Source of the DNA: Escherichia phage vB_EcoM_VR25
Sequence record: NC_028925.1
Length of the DNA stretch: 64,000 bases
Reading direction: 5' to 3' (one strand)
Shown here: positions 35,270 to 48,928 of the stretch, in pieces
How positions within the stretch are numbered: the first letter of the stretch is position 1
How the letters are laid out: each line of letters begins with the position of its first letter
Made by a program: the position numbers and the translations under genes
Notes under the pieces: generated by a model
Seen by the model: only the letters and a program-made list of their open reading frames with translations
Told to the model about the DNA's origin: nothing
Databases searched by the model: none

Positions 35270-36844
35270 ATGGCAGGTTTTAATACAATACTAAATTTTC
35301 TTAAGCCTTGGGCTAAAGAAGATGAACAAGAATATAAGCAACAAGAAAAAAATAATTTAGAGTCAATGACCGGGCCGAAGTTTGATGATGGGGCTCGCGA
35401 AATTGAGTCACAAGAACAAAACGTCCCGTATAATGCATTGATGCAACAGATGTTCGGGAGCAACGAACCGGAAGTAAAAAACACCAGGGAATTAATTGAC
35501 ACATACCGCAACCTACTAAATAATTATGAAGTTGATAACGCGGTGCAAGAAATTGTGTCTGATGCTATCGTTTTTGAAGATGGTAAAGATGTCGTAGCTC
35601 TTAACCTTGATGCTACTGAATTTAGTCAGAAAATTAAAGACCGAATTCTCGAAGAATTCTCGGAAGTTAATAACCTCCTTAATTTCGAGCGTAAAGGTTC
35701 TGACCACTTTAAACGTTGGTATGTGGATTCTCGAATTTTCTTCCACAAAATTATCAACCCTTCAAAACTTAAAGAAGGCGTTCAAGAACTTCGTCGCCTT
35801 GACCCAAGACAAATCCAGTTCATCCGTGAAATCGTTACACGCATGGAAAATGGTACGAAAATTGTTGACGGTTACAGAGAATATTTTGTATACGATACTG
35901 GACATGAAAGCTATTGTGCCGATGGTCGTATATATGAAGCGGGTACTAAAATAAAAATTCCTCGTGCGGCAATTGTATATGCACATTCCGGATTACTTGA
36001 TTGTTGCGGTAAGAATATCATCGGATACCTGCAACGAGCAATCAAACCTGCAAACCAATTAAAACTATTAGAAGATGCTTTAGTCATTTATCGTATAACT
36101 CGTGCGCCAGACCGCCGAGTCTTTTATATCGATACTGGGAATATGCCGTCTCGTAAAGCAGCAGCACATATGCAACATATTATGAACACGATGAAAAACC
36201 GTGTCGTATATGATGCAACTACGGGTAAAATCAAAAATCAACAGCATAATATGTCAATGACAGAAGACTATTGGTTGCAACGTCGTGACGGTAAAGCAGT
36301 CACTGAAGTTGATACTCTCCCAGGTGCACAAGGCATGTCGGATATGGACGATGTTCGCTGGTTTAAGAACAACCTATATCAGGCTCTCAGAATTCCATTA
36401 TCTCGTATCCCTAATGACCAGAACAGTGGCGTTATGTTTGATGCGGGGGCGACAATTACTCGCGATGAATTGAATTTCTCTAAATGGATTAGACAACTAC
36501 AGAATAAATTTGAAGAAGTTTTCCTCGACCCGCTTAAAACCAACCTTATCCTGAAAAAAGTTATTTCAGAAGAGGAATGGGACAAGGAACTAAATAATAT
36601 TAAAGTTACGTTCAACCGTGATAGCTATTTCACCGAAATGAAAGATGCAGAAATCATGGAACGCAGAATCAATATGCTAACGATGGCTGAACCGTTTATC
36701 GGTAAATATATTTCGCATCAAACTGCAATGAAGGATTTCCTCCAGATGTCTGATGAAGAAATTAATCAAGAAGCTAAGCAAATTGAATTGGAGTCCAAAG
36801 AGGCTCGTTTCCAAAACCCTGAAGAAGAAGAAGAGGATTTCTAA
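35270..36844 (+). CDS. 20: gp20 portal vertex protein
   Basis: ORF track 524 aa (T4 524). Confidence 0.92.
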
Positions 36845-38196: not shown

Positions 38197-39015
38197 ATGC
38201 TTAAAGAACAACTCATTTCTGAAGCTCAAAACATCGATGCTTCCGTTGCTCTCGATAGTATTTTCGAATCAGTTAATTTGTCCCCGGAAGCGAAAGCTAC
38301 CTTCGGCACTGTATTCGAAGCTACCGTCAAGCAACACGCCATCAAACTGGCAGAATCTCACATTCACGCCATCGCTGAAAAAGCTGAAGAAGAAGTCGAA
38401 AAGAATAAAGAAGAATCCGACGAAAAAGCAGAGAAAAAACTGAAAGAATCTGCAGCTAAATTCCTGGACCACGTTGCTAAAGAATGGCTTGCTGAAAACA
38501 AACTGGCTGTCGACCGTGGCATTAAAGCTGACCTGTTCGAATCCATGTTTACCGGCATGAAAGAACTGTTCGTTGAGCACAACGTTGTTGTTCCAGAAGA
38601 ATCTGTTGATGTTGTTGCAGAAATGCAGGAAGAACTGGAAGAGCAAAAAGCTGAAACCGCTAGTCTGTTCGAAGAAGTTTCTAAGCGTGATGCTTATATC
38701 AATTATGTCCAGCGCGAAGTTGCGTTGACTGAAGCGACCAAAGACCTGACCGAATCTCAAAAAGAAAAAGTTGGTTCTCTGGTAGAAGGTATGGATTATT
38801 CCGATGCGTTCGGTACCAAAATTGGCGCTATCGTTGAAATGGTTAAAGGTCAGGTAGACACCGCCGAAAAACCTATCACCGAAGCAGCTATAAATAATTC
38901 TGTAGACGATGCTGCGGCACTGAATTACATCTCAGAAGCAGTTGAAGAAAAAGGCGCCAAGCCTACCCTGTCCTTCGCGGACTTGTCTGCTCTCGCAGCA
39001 TCACGAATTTCTTAA
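38197..39015 (+). CDS. 22: gp22 prohead scaffold core protein
   Basis: ORF track 272 aa; E/K-rich helical sequence. Confidence 0.85.
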   Translation: MLKEQLISEAQNIDASVALDSIFESVNLSPEAKATFGTVFEATVKQHAIKLAESHIHAIAEKAEEEVEKNKEESDEKAEKKLKESAAKFLDHVAKEWLAENKLAVDRGIKADLFESMFTGMKELFVEHNVVVPEESVDVVAEMQEELEEQKAETASLFEEVSKRDAYINYVQREVALTEATKDLTESQKEKVGSLVEGMDYSDAFGTKIGAIVEMVKGQVDTAEKPITEAAINNSVDDAAALNYISEAVEEKGAKPTLSFADLSALAASRIS

Positions 39016-39036
39016 TTTAATAAGGTTATACAACAC

Positions 39037-40596
39037 ATGAAAAAGAATGCATTAGTTCAAAAATGGTCCGCTCTGCTGGAAAACGAAGCTCTTCCTGAAA
39101 TCGTTGGTGCTTCTAAACAAGCTATCATCGCTAAAATCTTTGAAAACCAGGAACAAGATATCCTGACCGCTCCTGAATACCGTGACGAAAAAATCTCCGA
39201 AGCATTTGGTTCTTTCCTGACTGAAGCTGAAATCGGTGGTGACCATGGTTATGATGCTACCAATATCGCGGCTGGCCAGACCTCTGGTGCAGTAACTCAG
39301 ATTGGGCCGGCAGTTATGGGTATGGTTCGTCGTGCTATCCCGCATCTGATTGCGTTTGATATTTGTGGCGTGCAGCCTCTGAACAACCCGACTGGCCAGG
39401 TATTTGCCCTGCGTGCAGTTTACGGTAAAGACCCTGTAGCTGCTGGTGCTAAAGAAGCTTTCCACCCGATGTATGCTCCGAACGCTATGTTCTCTGGTCA
39501 GGGCGCTGCTGAAGCTTTCGAAGCTCTGGCTGCAAGCAAAGTTCTTACCGTTGGTAAAATTTATTCTCACTTCTTCGAAGCAACCGGTTCCGCACACTAC
39601 CAGGCTGTTGAAGCTGTAACCGTTGATGCTGGCGCTACTGATGCTGCTAAACTTGACGCTGAAGTTACCAAACTGCTCGAAGCTGGTAAACTGGCAGAAA
39701 TTGCTGAAGGTATGGCTACCTCTATCGCCGAACTGCAGGAAGGTTTCAACGGTTCTCAGGATAACCCGTGGAACGAAATGGGCTTCCGCATCGATAAACA
39801 AGTTATCGAAGCTAAATCCCGTCAGCTGAAAGCAAGCTACTCTATCGAACTGGCACAGGACCTGCGCGCTGTTCACGGTATGGACGCTGATGCTGAATTG
39901 AGTGGTATTCTGGCTACTGAAATTATGCTGGAAATCAACCGCGAAGTTATCGATTGGATTAACTACTCCGCACAGGTTGGTAAATCTGGTATGACCAACA
40001 CCGTTGGCGCTAAAGCTGGTGTGTTTGACTTCCAGGACCCAATTGATATCCGTGGCGCTCGTTGGGCTGGTGAAAGCTTCAAAGCTTTACTGTTCCAGAT
40101 TGATAAAGAAGCCGCTGAAATCGCTCGTCAGACCGGTCGTGGTGCAGGTAACTTCATCATCGCTTCCCGTAACGTAGTTAACGTACTGGCTGCAGTTGAT
40201 ACCTCCGTATCTTATGCTGCTCAGGGTCTGGGTAAAGGTTTCAACGTTGACACCACTAAAGCTGTGTTCGCTGGTGTTCTGGGTGGCAAATACCGTGTCT
40301 ATATCGACCAGTATGCTCGCGCAGATTACTTCACCATCGGTTACAAAGGCGCTAACGAAATGGATGCTGGTATCTACTACGCACCATATGTTGCACTGAC
40401 CCCGCTGCGTGGCTCTGACCCGAAAAACTTCCAGCCGGTTATGGGCTTCAAAACCCGTTACGGTATCGGTATTAACCCGTTCGCTGACCCGGCAGCTCAG
40501 GCTCCGACCAAGCGTATTCAAAACGGCATGCCGGACATTGTTAACAGCCTCGGCTTGAACGGTTACTTTAGACGTGTATATGTAAAAGGTATCTAA
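39037..40596 (+). CDS. 23: gp23 major capsid protein
   Basis: ORF track 519 aa; codon usage typical of a highly expressed gene; conserved position. Confidence 0.95.
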   Translation: MKKNALVQKWSALLENEALPEIVGASKQAIIAKIFENQEQDILTAPEYRDEKISEAFGSFLTEAEIGGDHGYDATNIAAGQTSGAVTQIGPAVMGMVRRAIPHLIAFDICGVQPLNNPTGQVFALRAVYGKDPVAAGAKEAFHPMYAPNAMFSGQGAAEAFEALAASKVLTVGKIYSHFFEATGSAHYQAVEAVTVDAGATDAAKLDAEVTKLLEAGKLAEIAEGMATSIAELQEGFNGSQDNPWNEMGFRIDKQVIEAKSRQLKASYSIELAQDLRAVHGMDADAELSGILATEIMLEINREVIDWINYSAQVGKSGMTNTVGAKAGVFDFQDPIDIRGARWAGESFKALLFQIDKEAAEIARQTGRGAGNFIIASRNVVNVLAAVDTSVSYAAQGLGKGFNVDTTKAVFAGVLGGKYRVYIDQYARADYFTIGYKGANEMDAGIYYAPYVALTPLRGSDPKNFQPVMGFKTRYGIGINPFADPAAQAPTKRIQNGMPDIVNSLGLNGYFRRVYVKGI

Positions 40597-40614
40597 GCCT
40601 TAAAAATTAAAAAA

Positions 40615-40641
40615 GGGACCTTCGGGTCCCTTTCTTGTTTT
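40615..40641. terminator. bidirectional-looking terminator GGGACC-UUCG-GGUCCC flanked by A-run and U-rich tract
   Basis: hairpin read directly between gene 23 (+) and the convergent 97-aa ORF (-). Confidence 0.6.
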
Positions 40642-40934
40642 CATACCATACCATTTAAATGAACTTCTACCCGGCGCTTGATGAGGTCTCTGAAATTAAC
40701 ACTGTTCTCTTGAAGTTTCAACCAGTTACCTGATTTGTCTTTGGTGTGAGTAGAATAATTACCATTCCACCAAAAATCAGTATCATATGCTAAGTTTTCA
40801 TATTTTTTAACTAGTTTGTTCAGAGCATTACCATTAACACCATTTGGGTATTTGTTGACCAATGCAACAACTTCAATTTCCAGATTTTTAAAGGTATTCC
40901 GAAGGAAAGATACTTTGTTCATTTTAGACTCCAT
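40641..40934 (-). CDS. hypothetical protein (early gene embedded in the late module)
   Basis: ORF track 97 aa; own early promoter and conserved leader upstream. Confidence 0.5.
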   Translation of the reverse strand: MESKMNKVSFLRNTFKNLEIEVVALVNKYPNGVNGNALNKLVKKYENLAYDTDFWWNGNYSTHTKDKSGNWLKLQENSVNFRDLIKRRVEVHLNGMV

Positions 40935-40937
40935 TGT

Positions 40938-40988
40938 TTGGTAACTCAGTATGAAATCATTATGTCTTATCTTAATCGGGTTGTAAAC
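40938..40988 (-). promoter_or_regulatory. early promoter (-35 GTTTAC, 17 bp, -10 CATAAT) plus conserved leader
   Basis: minus-strand reading; leader GGTAACTCAGTATG shared with the cassettes at 3.1-4.5 kb. Confidence 0.5.
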
Positions 40989-40994
40989 AACTTT

Positions 40995-41002
40995 TATAAA
41001 TA
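40995..41002 (+). promoter_or_regulatory. late promoter TATAAATA
   Basis: exact octamer upstream of gene 24. Confidence 0.55.
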
Positions 41003-41027
41003 AAGTATATCACAAAAGGAAAGCGCA

Positions 41028-42308
41028 ATGGCAAAGATTAACGAACTGCTGCGCGAGTCAACTACCACTACCAGCAACTCCTTGGGCCGCCCGAATCTTG
41101 TTGCTTTGACCCGTGCTACAACCAAATTGATTTACCGCGATATTATCGCTGAACAACGTACTAACCAGCCAGTTGCGGCTCTGTACGGTGTTAAATATCT
41201 TACTCCTGATAATGAATTCAGTTTCCAGACTGGTGCTACTTATGGTGGTGAAGTCGGTTCTAAAGACCGTACAACTATTCCAGAATTAGCTACAGCTACT
41301 CAGCCTGTTGCTAAAGGCGAATATGTAAAATATCAAAATATCGTTTACAAAGCTCTGGTGGATAATCCATTTGCAACAACCACAGAAACAGTATTATCTG
41401 ATGTTCTACAGGAAGGTCTTATTGCATCGACTATTCGTTTAGTTCCTGATGCAGCGCATACCGAGAAATTTGAAGCCGGTGATGTTGAAATTAGTAACGC
41501 CGTGTTCCAGGTTAATAAATGGAATGCTCCTGTTAAATCCCGTAAATTGAAAACTGCACTGACTGTTGAACTTGCTCAGGATATGGAAGCAAACGGTTTT
41601 AATGCTCCTGCTTTCCTGGAAGACCTGCTTGCAACTACCATGGCAGACGAAATTAACAAAGATGTTCTGCAGTCTCTGATTACCGTTTCCAAGCGTTATA
41701 AAGTCACTGGCGTTTCTGATAAAGGTTTCATCGATTTGACATATGATTCAGCTCCAGAAGGCGCACGTAAACTATACGAACTGGTTTGCGAAATGAACTC
41801 TGAAATTCAGAAAACTACATCTTACTCTGGTACATTCGTTGTTGCCTCAAGTCGTGTGGCCGCGATGCTCGCCGGTTCCGGTTGGTTGAAACATAAACCT
41901 GAAGATGAACAATGGCTCCCGGAAACCGCGTACGGCTATTTGATTAATGGTCTTCCTGTATTCTGTGATGTTAACAGTCCATTGGATTATGTAACCGTTG
42001 GCGTTAAAGAAAATTACGGTGGAAACGAAGTCGTAGGCTCAATCTTCTATGCTCCTTATACCGAAGGCCTGGACTTAGATGATGAAGAACATGTAGGTGC
42101 GTTTAAGGTCATTGTGGACCCAGACAGCTTGCAGCCATCTATCTCCTTGATGGTTCGATATGCACTTTCAGCTAACCCTTACACCGTTGCTAAAGACGAC
42201 AAAGAAGCTCGTATTATCGATGCAACTAATATGGATTTAATGGCCGGCCAGAGCAACATGTCTTATCTGCTCGGTGTTAAACTTCCACCAATCATTTATG
42301 AGGCGTAA
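41028..42308 (+). CDS. 24: gp24 head vertex protein
   Basis: ORF track 426 aa; N-terminus MAKINELLRESTTT...GRPNLVALTRATTKLIY matches T4 gp24. Confidence 0.9.
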   Translation: MAKINELLRESTTTTSNSLGRPNLVALTRATTKLIYRDIIAEQRTNQPVAALYGVKYLTPDNEFSFQTGATYGGEVGSKDRTTIPELATATQPVAKGEYVKYQNIVYKALVDNPFATTTETVLSDVLQEGLIASTIRLVPDAAHTEKFEAGDVEISNAVFQVNKWNAPVKSRKLKTALTVELAQDMEANGFNAPAFLEDLLATTMADEINKDVLQSLITVSKRYKVTGVSDKGFIDLTYDSAPEGARKLYELVCEMNSEIQKTTSYSGTFVVASSRVAAMLAGSGWLKHKPEDEQWLPETAYGYLINGLPVFCDVNSPLDYVTVGVKENYGGNEVVGSIFYAPYTEGLDLDDEEHVGAFKVIVDPDSLQPSISLMVRYALSANPYTVAKDDKEARIIDATNMDLMAGQSNMSYLLGVKLPPIIYEA

Positions 42309-43592
42309 ATGCAAAAGATTAACGCACTAATTCACGAATCAACATTAACGGCGGCCAACCAGGTCGCCCGTCCTAATTTGCTTTCTTATACTCGGGCTAC
42401 GAATAAACGAATTTTTAAAGCTCTTGTGGCCGAACAGAAAACTACTCAGCCAGTCGCAGCGCTGTATGGCGTTCGTGTTCTGAACCCAGATGATAAAATG
42501 ACTTATCTTGGTGGAGCAACATTTGCAGGCCAGATTGGTATGTTCGAGCGTAAGAATATTCCAGAATTTACGAACAAAGACGAAGCTTATGCAGTCGGCA
42601 ACATGTTCCAGTTTGAAAGCATTGTATTCAAAGCTTTGGAAGCTTCTCCTTTTGCCGGGACCCTCGAAACTGATTTGGGTGAAGTTATTTCTGAAGCCAT
42701 TGCGGCTGGCCATATAAGAATGATGTCAGATGCGGCTTTCACTGATAAATTTGAACAAGGACATCCTGAAATTGCTGAAGCCGGTTTCCGTATTGATAAA
42801 TGGCAGACTGAAGTTAAATCCAGAAAACTGAAAACCTCTTTAACCGTTGAGCTTGCGCAAGACCTGGAAGCAAATGGTTTCGACGCAACAGATTTTATTG
42901 ATAATATCCTTGGTATTCAAATGGCAGAGGAAATTAATAAGGACGTACTGCAATCTTTAATTACCGTGAGTTCGCGTTTTAAAGTCCAGGGTGTTTCCGA
43001 AAAAGGTGTACTTAATCTTACTGATGCCGCTTATGATAATGCTCAGGACCGTGCTCGAACTCTGTATTATTATATGTGCGAAATGAATTCCGCAGTTCAA
43101 CGTCAGACTTCGTTCGCTGGTACATATGCAGTCGCTTCTTCCCGTTGTGCAGCTATTTTAGCAGCTTCTGGCTGGGTTGAGAAAAAGGAAGACCAAGATG
43201 AATTGGCCTATGGTGTTCTGAAGAACGGTTTGCCACTTTATGCAGATATGAATAGCCCGTGCGATTATGTTATTGTTGGTGTAAATGCTGATATGGGTGA
43301 AGGTCAGACAGTCGCATCTTTGTATTATGCGCCTTATACGGAAGGTCTTAGTGAAGTTGATGATGAGGGTGACACCTCGGTTGGGGAATTCAAGGTTATC
43401 GTTGACCCCGAAAGTTTACAGCCTACAGTTGCACTGTTAGCTCGTTATGCACTGACTGCAAACCCTTACACCGTTGCTAAAGACGATAAAGAAGCTCGCA
43501 TTATTGATGGAGCTGATATGGATAAGATGGCTAACCAAAGCCAATTGAGTTCTTATCTTGGTGTTAAACTTCCACCACTGGAAAAAGAATAA
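42309..43592 (+). CDS. gp24 paralog (second head vertex protein copy, tandem duplicate)
   Basis: ORF track 427 aa; collinear similarity to the preceding gene (MQKINALIHEST..., ...PYTVAKDDKEARIID...GVKLPP). Confidence 0.85.
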   Translation: MQKINALIHESTLTAANQVARPNLLSYTRATNKRIFKALVAEQKTTQPVAALYGVRVLNPDDKMTYLGGATFAGQIGMFERKNIPEFTNKDEAYAVGNMFQFESIVFKALEASPFAGTLETDLGEVISEAIAAGHIRMMSDAAFTDKFEQGHPEIAEAGFRIDKWQTEVKSRKLKTSLTVELAQDLEANGFDATDFIDNILGIQMAEEINKDVLQSLITVSSRFKVQGVSEKGVLNLTDAAYDNAQDRARTLYYYMCEMNSAVQRQTSFAGTYAVASSRCAAILAASGWVEKKEDQDELAYGVLKNGLPLYADMNSPCDYVIVGVNADMGEGQTVASLYYAPYTEGLSEVDDEGDTSVGEFKVIVDPESLQPTVALLARYALTANPYTVAKDDKEARIIDGADMDKMANQSQLSSYLGVKLPPLEKE

Positions 43593-43611
43593 GGGCCTTG
43601 CGGCCCTTTTT
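43593..43611. terminator. terminator hairpin GGGCC-UUGC-GGCCC plus U-run
   Basis: read directly between the gp24 paralog (+) and rnlB (-). Confidence 0.55.
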
Positions 43612-43612
43612 A

Positions 43613-44617
43613 TTAACTAATTAATGCAATCCAAACATGTCTTAATGTATCTCTTACATTTGCAATGAGTTGCTTTTTAACTTCAACAGGATTTTCCGTC
43701 TGGGTTAATTCAAGGCCTTCCCGACCTGCTTCTTCCAAAATATCTTGAACAGTCAAACCCATTACCTTTCCAAAATCCTTTGGCGTTACTTCCCCAATTT
43801 TACTGATAACATTGTTGATGCGGTTAACAGTCACATAATCAGTGAACTTCCATAAAATGTCCAGGTCTTCCTGGGACAACACAACAGCAGCCTTGATAGG
43901 CTTATCAGACTTTTTCTTTTCGCTGAATTTAGAGTTCTTACATTTAATCGCTACGCGCTCACCATTAGGTAACCAGGCCGGAGTATCAGGTTTAAGAACA
44001 TACCCTTCTGCAGTGAATACTTTACCTTCAACCTTTGCGTCAAAATCGGTGGTATTCGCGGTAGTCAAACCCGCATTATCTACTGTAAAATTGTAATCAG
44101 GAACCACAGAATCCAGGTCGTTAGGGAGCTTAATCAAGTCTTCAAAGCTACCCGTAGCCAGTCGTGGGGCAACCTTAAATTTATGGATAATACAGAAGGC
44201 TTCCATCAATGAATCAGTCAAAACAGATTCAGAGCCATCTTCCTTAGTAACGCGGATATCAAATACATAGAAATCTTTGTCACCATAATCAACATTCTTC
44301 TGGATACCCGCCCCGGCAAACTCACCATAAATTTGGTATGATTGATAATTAATATCCTGTAAAAGTCTCTGCACAGTTTTAATGGAATCTGCATAGTTCT
44401 TGAGTACAATTTCGTAGCCATAGAAATCTTCTGCAGGTAGGATAGGTCCAGTGCGTTTCGCACATGTCACATTGTCTTGTTCAATGATTAATGAAAAGTT
44501 GGTGCCATGAATTTTCTCACGCGCTACCCATTCACCGCTGGTGAAGCCTTGCAGGCGAATCTTTTCAATGAACTTGTTGTTATAGTGATTTTCAAGGCTG
44601 TTGTATTTCTTAAACAT
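43613..44617 (-). CDS. rnlB: RNA ligase 2
   Basis: ORF track 334 aa (T4 Rnl2 334); [13 protein letters not shown]... and nucleotidyltransferase motif KIHGTN. Confidence 0.9.
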
Positions 44618-44703
44618 AATCTCTCACTTTTGATGTTATAAATATCATTATAAATTATACCCTCTATACTTTCTTTCTCTGAAAGGAATTAATCGTATCG
44701 GAA

Positions 44704-45347: not shown

Positions 45348-46928
45348 ATGACACAAACTACAGGTGAAAAAGAAGGCGTATTTTACGGTTATTCTCTTTA
45401 TGATTTGAATAAAGAAAAACTAATAACTTTTGATGAATTACTTACAGGTGTTCAAGGAGAGCCCGGAGAAAATGGCGATATTGGACCAAAAGGCCCTATT
45501 GGTTTAACAGGTCCTCAAGGACCGAAAGGTGATACCGGGTCAAAAGGTATTAAAGGTGATACCGGCCCTCAAGGTATTCAAGGGCCCGCTGGCCCACAAG
45601 GTCCTCAGGGAGAAAAGGGAGTCCAAGGTTTAGCTGGAGTCCAAGGCATTCAAGGACCAGTCGGCCACCAAGGAGTGAAAGGTGATACCGGCCCTCAAGG
45701 TATTCAAGGACCGAAAGGTGATACAGGTCCTCAAGGCCCACAAGGTGACAAAGGCGAAATGGGTCCGGTGGGTCCGGCTGGTCTAACATGGAAAGGAACA
45801 TGGGACGCTGATGTAGAGTATTCTATAAATGAGGCTGTCGGATATGGTGGTTCTTTATATTTCGCCAAAACAAAAGTTCCTAATGGCGAAATACCAACAC
45901 CGACTTCTAACTATTGGGGTGTTTTGGCTACCGAGGGTCCACAAGGTCCACAAGGTCAACAAGGTCTTAAAGGTGATACCGGTCCTCAAGGTATTCAAGG
46001 ACCTGTAGGGCCTGTAGGGCAGCAGGGTATTCAGGGACCAAGAGGACTTCAAGGGTCAGAAGGTGAAATAGGACCGCGGGGTATTCAAGGGCTAAAAGGC
46101 GAAACTGGGCCCGCTGGTCCACAGGGTATTCAAGGGCTAAAAGGCGAGGTGGGTGCTCAGGGTCCTTCTGGTTCTCCTGGACTTACAGGACCAGAAGGAC
46201 CTCGTGGGTTAACAGGCGAAGCTGGAGCTCAAGGACCTCGTGGTGCTATAGGTCCTATCGGTTTAACAGGTCCTATCGGTTTAACGGGTCCTCAAGGTAT
46301 TCAAGGTCCTAAAGGTGATACAGGTCCTCAAGGCTTACAAGGTCCTCAAGGCTTACGAGGTATTCAAGGAGCTCCTGGAGTAAAAGGAGAAGCGGGTGCA
46401 CAAGGTCCTATCGGTTTAACAGGTCCGAAAGGTGATACCGGTCCTCAAGGTATTCAAGGACCGAAAGGTGATACAGGAGCACAAGGTCCTATTGGTTTAA
46501 CTGGACCTAAAGGTGATACAGGCCCGAGCCCTTATACTGTTTATAATTATTCTAATGTTGCAACTGGTTATGCTGAAATGGTTATGCCTGGTGTGTCATC
46601 AAACACAGTATTTAGACTTCGTTCAGTTGGAACTAATATAGAATATAGTGTTCTAAGTAAAGGCGGAGCTAATAGATATGTAGATTGGCACTTTTCAATT
46701 CCAAGTGTTTCCGGCAATACAGTAAGTACTAATAGCGGAACTAATACATTAACTCCTACAGGTAATTTTACTATTGTGGCGACCGCTTATAATGGACTAA
46801 GGGGATTTACAATAACATTATGCGAGTGGGGTTCAAGAGCTATTGTTGATATCACTGTTTATCATCATGGGCGTTCGGGAGACACAACCAAAGCTGTGGC
46901 TATTCGTATGACTACTACAAAATACTAA
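45348..46928 (+). CDS. collagen-like (Gly-X-Y repeat) protein with C-terminal globular domain
   Basis: ORF track 526 aa; two long Gly-X-Y runs separated by a roughly 50-aa non-collagenous insert; GGAGG RBS; no counterpart in T4 at this position. Confidence 0.8.
   Translation: MTQTTGEKEGVFYGYSLYDLNKEKLITFDELLTGVQGEPGENGDIGPKGPIGLTGPQGPKGDTGSKGIKGDTGPQGIQGPAGPQGPQGEKGVQGLAGVQGIQGPVGHQGVKGDTGPQGIQGPKGDTGPQGPQGDKGEMGPVGPAGLTWKGTWDADVEYSINEAVGYGGSLYFAKTKVPNGEIPTPTSNYWGVLATEGPQGPQGQQGLKGDTGPQGIQGPVGPVGQQGIQGPRGLQGSEGEIGPRGIQGLKGETGPAGPQGIQGLKGEVGAQGPSGSPGLTGPEGPRGLTGEAGAQGPRGAIGPIGLTGPIGLTGPQGIQGPKGDTGPQGLQGPQGLRGIQGAPGVKGEAGAQGPIGLTGPKGDTGPQGIQGPKGDTGAQGPIGLTGPKGDTGPSPYTVYNYSNVATGYAEMVMPGVSSNTVFRLRSVGTNIEYSVLSKGGANRYVDWHFSIPSVSGNTVSTNSGTNTLTPTGNFTIVATAYNGLRGFTITLCEWGSRAIVDITVYHHGRSGDTTKAVAIRMTTTKY
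45553..46477 (+). repeat. near-identical direct repeats inside the collagen-like gene
   Basis: 32-mer AAAGGTGATACCGGCCCTCAAGGTATTCAAGG exact at 45553 and 45678, one mismatch at 45969, again within 46425-46477; tandem CCTATCGGTTTAACAGGT at 46252/46267. Confidence 0.7.
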
Positions 46929-46937
46929 GGAGCTTTA

Positions 46938-47801
46938 ATGGAACCGGTTAAAGCTGTGTTAGAGCCTGATGTAATAGATGTGGAATATGGTAATACATAC
47001 TCGGCTACTGTAACTCTGTCTCCTATAGAAAATATTCCAGATGGTTCCGTGATAAGATATGATTGGGTTGTTAATAACAAGTTCGTTGGTACGGGTGAAG
47101 CTACTCGTACCACCCAACCATCTCAGACCGGAAATTATGTATTATCATGTAGAGTATTCATTACTCCGCCTAATGAAAATACTGTAATGATAACAACTAA
47201 TAAATCATATGGGTATGTATATAAAAATTCCGATACAAGTCCAGTAGATGCAGAAATATTATATGATAACAAGATATACCAAATAGGAAGCAAAGTTAGA
47301 TTATTAGCCGTTGCCAATAACCCAGATACCAACTTTGTTAAAGGTATTATATGGAAGGATGCTGATGGTAAGATAATAGGTATAGGTCGGGAATATATCC
47401 ATACAATGCAATCAGAGTATGATATAGTTCGAGCTAAAGTTACAATGGATTCGCCTATAAGAGATGAATTTAGTAAGAACTTTACTATACATTTGTACGC
47501 TATAAATGTTCAAGAAGGAACATGTATAAGATATATTCATCCTTTAGACCACAGGGATGCAGGATTTATCTGGTGTGGTTGGTGGGTTATGGATGAAATC
47601 CAACGAGCGATAAAACTTGGGCTGGATTGGAAAAATCCAAAAGAGCTAGATTTAAATTACAAGTGTGATTTAGAGACATTAGCGTTATTGCTCAAGACAT
47701 ATCCTGAAGCCGAAGTTCAAGAATCAAGACACGGATATATAATAACCAGACTACAAATTGAGACTGGCGAAATATATAAAAAACCATATGAAGTAAAATA
47801 A
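46938..47801 (+). CDS. Hoc-like capsid decoration protein (second copy)
   Basis: ORF track 287 aa; C-terminal ...HPLDHRDAGFIWCGWWVMDEIQRAIK...YPEAEVQESRHGYII... parallels the capsid-binding C-terminus of the hoc product downstream. Confidence 0.7.
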   Translation: MEPVKAVLEPDVIDVEYGNTYSATVTLSPIENIPDGSVIRYDWVVNNKFVGTGEATRTTQPSQTGNYVLSCRVFITPPNENTVMITTNKSYGYVYKNSDTSPVDAEILYDNKIYQIGSKVRLLAVANNPDTNFVKGIIWKDADGKIIGIGREYIHTMQSEYDIVRAKVTMDSPIRDEFSKNFTIHLYAINVQEGTCIRYIHPLDHRDAGFIWCGWWVMDEIQRAIKLGLDWKNPKELDLNYKCDLETLALLLKTYPEAEVQESRHGYIITRLQIETGEIYKKPYEVK

Positions 47802-47804
47802 AAG

Positions 47805-47822
47805 GGCCTTGCGGCCCTTTAT
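47805..47822. terminator. terminator hairpin GGGCC-UUGC-GGCCC between convergent genes
   Basis: read directly. Confidence 0.5.
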
Positions 47823-47824
47823 CA

Positions 47825-48928
47825 TTAATAGACGTAATCGTATATAATACCAGCTTCCAATGCCGAACGGTGGACGATACGACCGTTACGAGATTCCTGT
47901 ACATCAACTTCCGGGTAATCACTAAGCATTTTGGCTAATACCGCCAGATGACAATAATATGGTGTATCCTCTTTAGTGGCTTTTTTCCAATCTGTACTTT
48001 CAGATGTTAATTTCTGAATAGCGTCCATAACCCACCAGCCACACCAAATATACGCAGTATTACGGACAGGAAGTGGATGTACATAAATTAAAGGGCATTC
48101 TTCTGGAATAACAGGCTCTGCTTCTTCCACAGTAACGGACTTAGTACCTGATTTAACTGAATTTGTAAAGCCTGTTTGTGATGCGGTAACTTCACAAGTA
48201 TATGTCTTCAAGCCTTCAGTGGATTCCGTTATTGCTCTTGTTGCTTCTGTTGAGTTGTCGTCCCATTTATATGCAAGAGTCGCACCAGGGATAGCAGGGG
48301 ACACAGAAGCTGTCAAATTGAATGGAACATCAACCGTTGCAGTAGACGGGCCTGAAATCTCAACAGTGAACTCAGGAAATGTATTGTTTTCGACCGTAAC
48401 AACTACTGCCTCAGGATTAATAACTTGATTGTCATAATCTGCCGCAGAAACGGTAATTTGGCAAGTTAAAGAAACTGGTCCTGCGTCAGTAGCAGCACGA
48501 GTAATATCTTTAGTAATTTCACCAGTAGACCACAAATATGCTATTGTAGCTCCACCGGGTTCACCTGTTACATTAGCCGAAGCGTTATATTCCTGACCAA
48601 CTTTAACAGTAGGAGTGGAAGTTGTTAATGTTGCTGTTGCAGCCATAGTCTTATTATTAACCGTAATGGTTGTTTGAGCCTCTGCCGTTTCAGGCTCTCC
48701 TTCTTCCGGCGTTGTGGTGGCAACAACTTTAATTACTTTTGAACCTGCTGGGCCAGCTGCAATATAATCCATAGTAGCAATAACAGAATCTTGTGGAACA
48801 TCATCAACGGTCCATACAAAAGATTCGGTACCAGCGACAGCGGCTCCAGCCCCAGTAGCAGTAAAATTAGTTGTTGCACCTATAACCGCTGTAGGTGTTA
48901 AAGGGGCAATTGATACAGTATAAGCCAT
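47825..48928 (-). CDS. hoc: Hoc, highly immunogenic outer capsid protein
   Basis: ORF track 367 aa (T4 about 376); C-terminus ...CPLIYVHP...AYIWCGWWVMD...YPEVDVQESRNGRIVH... matches T4 Hoc; minus orientation as in T4. Confidence 0.8.
   Translation of the reverse strand: MAYTVSIAPLTPTAVIGATTNFTATGAGAAVAGTESFVWTVDDVPQDSVIATMDYIAAGPAGSKVIKVVATTTPEEGEPETAEAQTTITVNNKTMAATATLTTSTPTVKVGQEYNASANVTGEPGGATIAYLWSTGEITKDITRAATDAGPVSLTCQITVSAADYDNQVINPEAVVVTVENNTFPEFTVEISGPSTATVDVPFNLTASVSPAIPGATLAYKWDDNSTEATRAITESTEGLKTYTCEVTASQTGFTNSVKSGTKSVTVEEAEPVIPEECPLIYVHPLPVRNTAYIWCGWWVMDAIQKLTSESTDWKKATKEDTPYYCHLAVLAKMLSDYPEVDVQESRNGRIVHRSALEAGIIYDYVY

What the first reader, a model, noticed from the sequence alone, without database searches (positions are those of the whole stretch)
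41028..43592. Tandem duplication of the head vertex gene 24
Two adjacent about 427-aa ORFs are collinear paralogs, both resembling T4 gp24 (T4 has one copy). They share the N-terminal MxKIN.L..EST motif and many internal blocks but differ at many positions (similarity judged by eye). gp24 itself is an ancient duplicate of gp23, so a further duplication suggests sub-functionalised vertex proteins or a larger, variant capsid.
Basis: partly seen in the sequence, partly recalled or inferred. Interest (0 to 1): 0.55.

Follow-up and report, generated by a model that had tools for sequence, protein, structure and literature searches.

The report
Known paired T4-type head vertex genes
This T4-like coliphage carries two adjacent, intact genes for the capsid corner (vertex) protein gp24 where T4 has one, but the pair is old, conserved and already annotated in about 115 sequenced phages, and what the second copy does is still untested.

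Summary
ORFs 41028-42308 (copy A, 426 aa) and 42309-43592 (copy B, 427 aa) abut on the + strand. They are 57% identical (E 3e-176), and both are gp24-type, at about 71% and 57% identity to T4 gp24.

The pair is not new. The window is a Gaprivervirus, 96.8% identical in DNA to phage VR26. The same pair is annotated in GenBank as 24a/24b (JS98, JS10, IME08), 24(1)/24(2) (VR7) and capsid vertex protein I/II.

It is also not a recent duplication:
- A-type copies group with T4's single gp24 to the exclusion of B in 200 of 200 quartet bootstraps.
- B forms its own clade (100% bootstrap).
- In all ten loci inspected, B sits directly downstream of an A-type gene.
- A-B identity within a genome is 53-57% in all ten genomes compared.

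Both copies are under strong purifying selection (dN/dS 0.01-0.08 in unsaturated pairs). Both keep the prohead-protease cleavage motif. They form one late operon: promoter, 24A, 24B, terminator.

Carrier genomes are 158-176 kb, close to the T4-type records here (about 165-169 kb), so a larger capsid is not supported. Division of labour between the two proteins is plausible but untested.

The parts
40612..40633 (+). Terminator-like hairpin after gene 23 (AAAGGGACCTTCGGGTCCCTTT followed by a T-rich tail). It is also scored on the - strand. It separates gene 23 from the gene 24 unit.
40995..41002 (+). T4-type late promoter box TATAAATA, 26 nt upstream of the 24A start codon. It is the only such box between the gene 23 terminator and the end of 24B.
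   Evidence: A box in the same position is present in 8 of the 9 related loci inspected; locus m17 has CATAAATA.
41016..41023 (+). Shine-Dalgarno-like AAGGAAAG upstream of 24A.
   Evidence: Read from the sequence. GGAAAGCGCAATG is conserved across related loci.
41028..42308 (+). Gene 24A, the T4-orthologous capsid vertex protein (426 aa). It has a 10-residue propeptide ending in L-R-E before Ser11.
42300..42303 (+). GAGG Shine-Dalgarno-like element for 24B, embedded in the last codons of 24A, 5 nt before the ATG. This arrangement suggests translational coupling.
42309..43592 (+). Gene 24B, the deep-branching second gp24-type vertex protein paralog (427 aa). Its propeptide ends in I-H-E before Ser11.
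43591..43608 (+). Terminator-like hairpin (AAGGGCCTTGCGGCCCTT followed by a T run) immediately after 24B. It is bidirectional and shared with the convergent rnlB gene.
   Evidence: An equivalent hairpin follows 24B in all nine related loci.

Best explanation
The region is a conserved late operon with two cistrons: late promoter, gene 24A, gene 24B, terminator. It encodes two gp24-type (HK97-fold) capsid vertex proteins.

Copy A is the ortholog of T4 gp24. Copy B belongs to a distinct, old paralog lineage. That lineage is found in Gaprivervirus, Dhakavirus, Gelderlandvirus, Marfavirus and related Enterobacter, Kosakonia and Erwinia phages. In every locus inspected it lies directly downstream of an A-type gene. 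The pair arose either by an ancient tandem duplication followed by loss of B in lineages such as T4 and Karamvirus, or by ancient capture of a divergent gene 24. Either way, it predates the radiation of the A, T4, Karamvirus and PM2-like gp24 group.

Shown here: paralogy, age, synteny, intactness, purifying selection on both copies, co-transcription signals and conserved protease-site motifs.

Inferred mechanism. Both proteins are made late, enter the prohead, and are cleaved after Glu10 by the gp21 protease. Each forms separate homopentamers that fill the 11 non-portal vertices. My preferred version, at roughly 30% on its own, is that the two pentons are specialised for the two geometric classes of vertices in a prolate T4-type head. 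One class is the ten 'shoulder' vertices at the boundary between cap and midsection. The other is the single apical vertex opposite the portal. The main alternative is interchangeable or stochastic filling of vertices.
For: Paralogy and gp24 identity.

Same pair annotated in VR26, VR7, VR5, JS98, S16 and F48. tblastn at E <= 1e-175 finds 115 phage records with a B-type gene, in phages of Escherichia, Klebsiella, Salmonella, Enterobacter, Erwinia and Kosakonia.

Synteny: B lies immediately after an A-type gene in four further metagenomic or Erwinia-type loci.

Phylogeny:
- The B clade has 100% bootstrap support and the A clade 97-98%.
- Quartets (A,X|B,Out) are recovered in 200 of 200 bootstraps for X = T4/Karamvirus, PM2-like and FBB1_A-like gp24, with gp24-type outgroups (Krischvirus/Gualtarvirus or Acinetobacter-phage gp24).
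- d(B,Out) minus d(A,Out) is only +0.02, so B is not a fast-evolving derivative of A.
- Within-genome A-B identity is 53-57% in 10 genomes.

Selection: dN/dS is 0.01-0.08 for pairs with unsaturated dS, and dN of B is at or below dN of A in distant pairs.

Processing: the [L/I]-x-E|S motif at residues 8-11 is kept in every B sequence. The PDB chains of mature gp24 start at residue 11.

Operon: there is a single TATAAATA box, a GAGG before the B start codon, abutting or overlapping stop and start codons, and flanking terminators, all conserved in related loci.

Homopentamers rather than obligate A-B heteromers: closely related B copies (79-84% identical) are paired with A copies from different sublineages (65-72% identical).
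Against: No experimental data could be reached on whether both proteins are in the virion, their stoichiometry or their position. All 10 literature searches found nothing on the pair, and the primary JS98 papers looked up are not in the held library.

T4 fills both vertex classes with a single gp24, so vertex-class specialisation is not required by the geometry.

Translational coupling would suggest comparable synthesis of the two proteins, which fits a 10:1 use poorly.

The phylogeny rests on neighbour-joining and four-point distances, not on maximum likelihood. With gp23 as the outgroup, quartet support falls to 142-188 of 200. The position of B relative to the Jiaodavirus, Winklervirus and Acinetobacter-phage gp24 is unresolved.

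The AlphaFold model of B was of low confidence (mean pLDDT 56), so no structural argument could be made.
Confidence: 0.7

Rival explanations
1. This is a recent, lineage-specific tandem duplication of this phage's gene 24, followed by rapid divergence of the downstream copy (neofunctionalisation).
For: The genes are adjacent, collinear and of equal length, as expected for a tandem duplication.
Against: Copy A is 71% identical to T4 gp24 but only 57% identical to copy B. Copy B is as close to Jiaodavirus JD18 gp24 (64%) as copy A is (65%). A groups with T4, Karamvirus and PM2-like gp24 to the exclusion of B in 200 of 200 quartets with gp24-type outgroups. B is not rate-accelerated: the difference in distance to the outgroup is +0.02, and dN of B is at or below dN of A. 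The pair is present, at a constant 53-57% identity, in phage genera that infect six host genera.
Confidence: 0.05
2. Copy B was captured laterally from a different T4-like lineage, by illegitimate or homeologous recombination during co-infection, rather than duplicated in place. It then spread as a 24A-24B or 24B cassette among Tevenvirinae.
For: B branches outside the A and T4 group and has weak affinity to Jiaodavirus gp24 (59% bootstrap; unresolved). The A partners of closely related B genes belong to different gp24 sublineages. There is a mosaic boundary between A and B even among close relatives: between the window and VR26, dS is 0.256 in A and 0.080 in B.
Against: No phage or contig with a B-type gene as its only gene 24 was seen among the loci inspected. 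The order 23-24A-24B was the same in every locus inspected. Ancient duplication followed by losses explains the same data. This rival concerns origin only and does not change what the genes encode.
Confidence: 0.3
3. One copy is redundant or decaying: a dispensable spare with no distinct role.
For: T4 needs only one gp24, and even that can be bypassed by gp23 mutations (PMC10580926, read).
Against: Both ORFs are intact in all 10 genomes analysed. dN/dS is 0.01-0.08 for both copies in unsaturated pairs. B is the more conserved of the two, with B-B identity of at least 68% against A-A identity down to 63%. The cleavage motif and 116 shared conserved columns are retained.
Confidence: 0.05
4. Copy B has left the vertex role. 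It might be a minor shell subunit at special lattice positions near the portal, or a prohead-only assembly factor, while copy A alone forms the pentons.
For: B carries fixed, clade-specific substitutions concentrated in the N-terminal arm region (T32N, L34R, Y36F, K56R, Y57V in T4 numbering). My own knowledge of HK97-fold proteins is that this region mediates contacts between capsomers or with the scaffold.
Against: B keeps full-length collinearity with gp24 at 55-57% identity to the crystallised T4 protein, against about 29% to gp23. It has the same length, the same propeptide and the same late expression unit. No feature specific to hexamer-forming gp23 is present; for example, it lacks the long N-terminal extension of gp23, which is 519 aa here.
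Confidence: 0.1

Closest known systems
Annotated gene 24 pairs of JS98-like and VR7-like phages: JS98, JS10 and IME08 24a/24b; VR7 24(1)/24(2); VR5, VR20 and VR26 'capsid vertex protein I/II'; Salmonella phage CGG4-1 'head vertex protein I/II'
   Same: This is the same feature. The order is the same (23, small reverse ORF, 24A, 24B, rnlB) and the lengths match. Copy B is 99.8% identical to VR7 24(2). The locus is 96.8% identical in DNA to VR26.
   Different: Nothing substantive; this window is another member of the same group. The database records only name the genes. I found no functional or evolutionary treatment of the pair in the searchable literature.
Bacteriophage T4 gp24 capsid vertex protein (PDB 1YUE, 5VF3, 7VRT)
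   Same: Both copies match it end to end (E 1e-197 and 4e-148). Both have the same roughly 427-aa length, a 10-residue propeptide with an L/I-x-E cleavage motif, a position downstream of gene 23, and a late promoter.
   Different: T4 has one gene and this phage has two. Copy B is only 55-57% identical to T4 gp24 and carries seven clade-fixed substitutions at positions that are otherwise conserved in gp24.
The older gp23/gp24 paralogy of T4-like phages (hexamer-forming major capsid protein and penton protein)
   Same: It is a precedent for duplication and specialisation of an HK97-fold capsid gene within the same head-gene cluster. gp23 here is 28-29% identical to both copies.
   Different: The roles of gp23 and gp24 (hexamer and pentamer) are experimentally established. 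No such evidence exists for 24A versus 24B.
Tandem pentamer (BMC-P) paralogs of bacterial microcompartments, such as csoS4A/csoS4B of alpha-carboxysomes (analogy from my own knowledge, not tested here)
   Same: Two adjacent paralogous genes for the vertex-capping pentamer of one polyhedral shell.
   Different: The protein fold and the system are unrelated. This is an analogy for how such a pair might work, not a family assignment.

Membership tests
T4 gp24 capsid vertex protein family (within Pfam PF07068 Gp23) | Full-length sequence match to PF07068, and closer to gp24 than to gp23 | tested here: met
   A scores 333 bits and B 330 bits against PF07068. Against the PDB, T4 gp24 scores E 1e-197 (A) and 4e-148 (B), while gp23 scores about 1e-11. 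In the tree, all gp24-type sequences, including the B clade, separate from gp23 with 100% support.
T4 gp24 capsid vertex protein family | Length of about 420-430 aa, without the long N-terminal extension of gp23 | tested here: met
   A is 426 aa and B is 427 aa, against 519 aa for gp23.
T4 gp24 capsid vertex protein family | Short N-terminal propeptide removed by the gp21 prohead protease after an L/I-x-E motif, so that mature gp24* starts at residue 11 | tested here: inconclusive
   The motif is present in both copies (A ...LLRE|S, B ...LIHE|S) and in all 19 B-clade sequences. The PDB chains of mature gp24 begin at query residue 11. Actual cleavage cannot be shown from sequence.
T4 gp24 capsid vertex protein family | Position in the late head-gene cluster downstream of gene 23, with T4-type late promoter control | tested here: met
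   The cluster runs 20-67-68-21-22-23-(small ORF)-24A-24B-rnlB. TATAAATA lies at 40995-41002. B has no promoter of its own and is co-transcribed with A.
T4 gp24 capsid vertex protein family | HK97-like fold with an insertion domain | tested here: inconclusive
   The AlphaFold2 model of B has mean pLDDT 56 and pTM 0.60. Foldseek still ranks T4 gp24 chains first (E 5e-33), but TM is only 0.46. The fold is inferred from 55% sequence identity to 1YUE instead.
T4 gp24 capsid vertex protein family | Forms pentamers at the 11 non-portal vertices of the mature capsid | not testable with these tools
   This needs virion proteomics and cryo-EM. No solved structure matches B better than T4 gp24 does.
B-type gp24 paralog clade (24b, 24(2), 'vertex protein II') | Monophyly with annotated 24b and 24(2) genes, and a position immediately downstream of an A-type gene 24 | tested here: met
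   The clade has 100% bootstrap support. Copy B is 99.8% identical to VR7 24(2). The tandem arrangement is present in 10 of 10 loci inspected.

The most novel reading that the evidence does not exclude
The two gp24 paralogs form distinct homopentamers that occupy different geometric classes of vertices in the prolate head: the ten shoulder vertices and the single apical vertex opposite the portal. This would be the first case of position-specific penton proteins in a tailed phage, and would explain why the pair has been kept under strong purifying selection across several genera. Alternatively, the B penton could confer a distinct stability or decoration-binding property.
Probability: 0.2. Interest if true: 0.6.

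Novelty: already known. Interest (0 to 1): 0.25.

Why it matters
As a discovery it matters little, because the gene pair has long been annotated in public phage records.

What remains open is why about 8% of the sequenced phage records carrying a gp24 homolog (115 of 1416 records) keep two penton genes under strong purifying selection, when T4 needs one and can even bypass that one. Phages such as JS98, VR7 and S16 are culturable, so the question can be addressed directly with quantitative virion proteomics and focused cryo-EM of the vertices.

A position-specific answer would bear on how prolate capsids handle non-equivalent vertices.

Tried and rejected
1. Literature. None returned a paper that discusses the pair. 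The JS98 papers could not be opened by PMC id or DOI. Whether both proteins have been seen in virions therefore remains unknown to me.

2. Structure. AlphaFold2 on copy B with a 34-sequence alignment gave a low-confidence model (pLDDT 56). Foldseek only restated the sequence result. No interface analysis was possible.

3. Gene conversion or concerted evolution between A and B. Rejected, because within-genome A-B identity (53-57%) is no higher than between genomes.

4. Accelerated evolution of B. Rejected by relative-rate and dN comparisons.

5. A gp23 signature that co-varies with the presence of B. No column separates carriers from non-carriers.

6. A link between the second gp24 and the extra decoration genes (collagen-like and second Hoc-like). 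Rejected, because the annotated JS98, S16 and F48 regions show the pair but not those genes.

7. A larger capsid. Rejected on genome size.

8. gp23 as a proxy for the species tree. It is too poorly resolved and too mosaic to reconcile against the gp24 tree.
Full report
**1. Observation**

Listing ORFs over 36-48 kb of the window shows a canonical T4-type head-gene cluster on the + strand. It contains portal gene 20 (35270-36844), genes 67 and 68, the gene 21 protease, the gene 22 scaffold and the gene 23 major capsid protein (39037-40596). A small reverse ORF follows (40641-40934). Then come two abutting ORFs, 41028-42308 (426 aa, 'A') and 42309-43592 (427 aa, 'B'), followed by the convergent rnlB gene.

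A and B are 57% identical and 75% similar over their whole length (E 3e-176). Each is 28-29% identical to gp23 over the C-terminal two thirds. Both match Pfam PF07068 end to end and PHROG 138. Both match the solved T4 gp24 chains (1YUE, 5VF3, 7VRT) at E 1e-197 (A) and 4e-148 (B), against about 1e-11 for gp23 chains.

**2. What the window is, and whether the pair is known**

Megablast of 39000-44700 finds 100% coverage at 96.8% identity to Escherichia phage vB_EcoM_VR26 (genus Gaprivervirus), and 92-94% identity to VR20, VR7 and many others.

The deposited annotations already name the pair:
- 'capsid vertex protein I / II' in VR26 and VR5;
- '24(1) / 24(2)' in VR7;
- '24a / 24b' in JS98, JS10 and IME08;
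- 'head vertex protein I / II' in Salmonella phage CGG4-1.

Copy B of the window is 99.8% identical to VR7 24(2). The feature is thus already known at the level of annotation.

**3. Distribution**

tblastn with copy B finds gp24 homologs in 1416 phage records, with 1533 matched places in all. That implies about 117 records with two places.

Restricting to E <= 1e-175 isolates the B type. It gives 115 records, in phages of Escherichia, Klebsiella, Salmonella, Enterobacter, Erwinia, Kosakonia and Yersinia, with genome lengths of 158-176 kb.

Annotated regions show the tandem pair in Dhakavirus (JS98, VR5), Gelderlandvirus (S16) and Marfavirus (F48). They show a single gene 24 in a T4 derivative, Karamvirus, Jiaodavirus JD18, Winklervirus X20, Acinetobacter phage 133, Tegunavirus, Gualtarvirus and Krischvirus.

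The large protein database adds B-type sequences down to 65% identity, including Erwinia phage FBB1. Four contigs looked up by exact protein all show the order 23, 24A-type, 24B-type.

**4. Age and origin**

*Identities.* The identity matrix gives A-B 57%, A-T4 71%, B-T4 57%, A-JD18 65% and B-JD18 64%. If B were simply a fast-evolving copy of A, it should be further than A from every other gp24 by the same amount. It is not.

*Trees.* Neighbour-joining trees give a 100%-supported B clade and a 97-98% A clade. The A clade groups with T4 and Karamvirus at 77-83%.

*Quartet tests.* Four-point quartet bootstraps give (A,X|B,outgroup) in 200 of 200 replicates for X = T4/Karamvirus, PM2-like or FBB1_A-like gp24, using Krischvirus/Gualtarvirus or Acinetobacter-phage gp24 as outgroups. 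With gp23 as the outgroup the count is 142-188 of 200. The position of B relative to Jiaodavirus, Winklervirus and Acinetobacter-phage gp24 is unresolved.

*Rate.* The distance of B to the outgroup exceeds that of A by only 0.02.

*Constancy.* Within-genome A-B identity is 53-57% in ten genomes spanning the B clade. This leaves no sign of gene conversion and none of ongoing divergence from a recent event.

*Partner swapping.* Closely related B genes are paired with A genes of different sublineages. For example, contigs c80268 and c44063 are 84% identical in B and 66% in A.

The A/B split therefore predates the radiation of the A, T4, Karamvirus and PM2-like gp24 group. An ancient tandem duplication with later losses, and an ancient capture of a divergent gene 24, cannot be told apart with these data.

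Caveat: the distances are simple Kimura protein distances and no likelihood method was available.

**5. Are both copies functional?**

Nei-Gojobori estimates on nine genomes give dN/dS of 0.04-0.07 for A and 0.01-0.08 for B in the pairs where dS is not saturated. Values stay at or below 0.2 elsewhere. In distant pairs, dN of B is at or below dN of A. B-B identity never falls below 68%, whereas A-A identity falls to 63%.

Between the B and non-B groups, 116 of 427 columns are conserved to the same residue. Only seven columns are fixed to different residues: T32N, L34R, Y36F, K56R, Y57V, P244Q and E335Q in T4 numbering. These are mostly in the N-terminal arm region. A further 41 columns are conserved in B but variable elsewhere.

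The least similar stretch between A and B is roughly residues 60-160, which is also the most variable part of gp24 in general.

The propeptide motif [L/I]-x-E before Ser11 is kept in A, in B and in all B-clade sequences. The PDB chains of mature gp24 start at residue 11.

Neither copy shows any sign of decay.

**6. Expression anatomy**

- A terminator-like hairpin follows gene 23, at 40612-40633.
- A T4 late-promoter box TATAAATA lies at 40995-41002. The window has 20 such boxes against 4.5 expected by chance.
- AAGGAAAG precedes the 24A ATG.
- There is no late box inside A or B.
- GAGG lies at 42300-42303, inside the end of A, 5 nt before the B ATG, which directly follows the TAA of A.
- A bidirectional terminator-like hairpin at 43591-43608 follows B.
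- The layout (promoter box, abutting or overlapping stop and start codons, terminator) recurs in the related loci, with two exceptions. The upstream region is missing from the FBB1-like locus. Locus m17 has CATAAATA in place of the promoter box.

The two genes are therefore one late transcription unit, with likely translational coupling.

**7. Mechanism**

*Shown.* There are two intact, co-transcribed, selectively maintained gp24-type genes.

*Inferred from what is established for T4 gp24.* T4 gp24 forms pentamers at 11 vertices, is cleaved by gp21, and fills vertices of the gp23 shell (background as summarised in PMC10580926 and PMC10385173). By analogy, both proteins enter the prohead, are processed, and form pentons.

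The partners are exchangeable across lineages, and the axial and insertion regions are divergent. For these reasons I favour separate homopentamers over obligate heteropentamers.

A prolate head has two geometric classes of non-portal vertices: ten at the cap-midsection boundary and one apical. Specialisation to these classes is my preferred but weakly supported version. T4 manages with one protein, and translational coupling argues against a 10:1 ratio.

The 'larger capsid' idea is not supported. Carrier genomes are the size of T4's, and no gp23 residue tracks the presence of B.

**8. What failed**

The literature tools returned nothing on the pair, and the primary JS98 papers are not held. 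The AlphaFold model of B was of low confidence, and Foldseek only restated the sequence match.

**9. Verdict**

The feature is already known, as an annotated gene pair in JS98-like and VR7-like phages and several other genera.

The added value here is the evidence that the pair is ancient, syntenic, under purifying selection and organised as a single late operon. Interest is low to moderate. The functional question is open and testable, but the finding itself is not new.

Noticed in passing
window 45348-48928: Downstream of rnlB there is a 526-aa collagen-like (G-x-y repeat) protein at 45348-46928 on the + strand. Next to it are two convergent Hoc-like head-decoration genes, 46938-47801 (+, 287 aa) and 47825-48928 (-, 367 aa). 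Both match PHROG 1149 'Hoc-like head decoration', and their C-terminal capsid-binding domains are 43% identical (E 7e-28). This is a second capsid-protein paralogy in the same window. The annotated JS98 region shows a single hoc at this place, whereas VR26 and VR5 share the extra genes.
   Followed up: partly
window 40641-40934 (- strand): A small 97-aa reverse ORF lies between gene 23 and gene 24A. It has no Pfam hit but matches PHROG 6003 (unknown function, E 3e-49), and it is conserved in VR26, VR5 and JS98. The annotated T4-type, JD18 and Karamvirus regions show no gene in this gap. Acinetobacter phage 133 and a Tegunavirus carry homing endonuclease genes there, so the 23-24 gap looks like an insertion hotspot.
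   Followed up: partly
window 41028-43592 compared with L001 (VR26), L002 (JS98) and L014 (VR5): There is a mosaic boundary within the pair. Between the window and VR26, dS is 0.256 in 24A but 0.080 in 24B, and copy B is 99.8% identical to VR7. VR5 groups with JS98 in the A tree but branches outside JS98 plus the window in the B tree. This suggests recombination between or within the two genes among close relatives.
   Followed up: partly
L015 5327-6046; L017 5326-6841; L018 2676-4506: In metagenomic and Erwinia-type loci, one or two extra + strand genes are inserted between 24B and the rnlB block. In L018 one of them is a 332-aa product with a faint collagen hit. Their function is unknown and they are absent from the window at that position.
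   Followed up: no
L003 4803-5366; L004 4788-4964; L005 4812-5360: A DprA-like gene sits between gene 24 or 24B and rnlB in S16, in F48 (truncated) and in JD18. It is absent from the window, where rnlB directly follows the 24B terminator.
   Followed up: no
whole window: The T4 late-promoter octamer TATAAATA occurs 20 times against 4.5 expected from shuffles. Most occurrences are on the + strand between 21 and 41 kb, ahead of structural genes. This is consistent with a T4-type late transcription programme.
   Followed up: no
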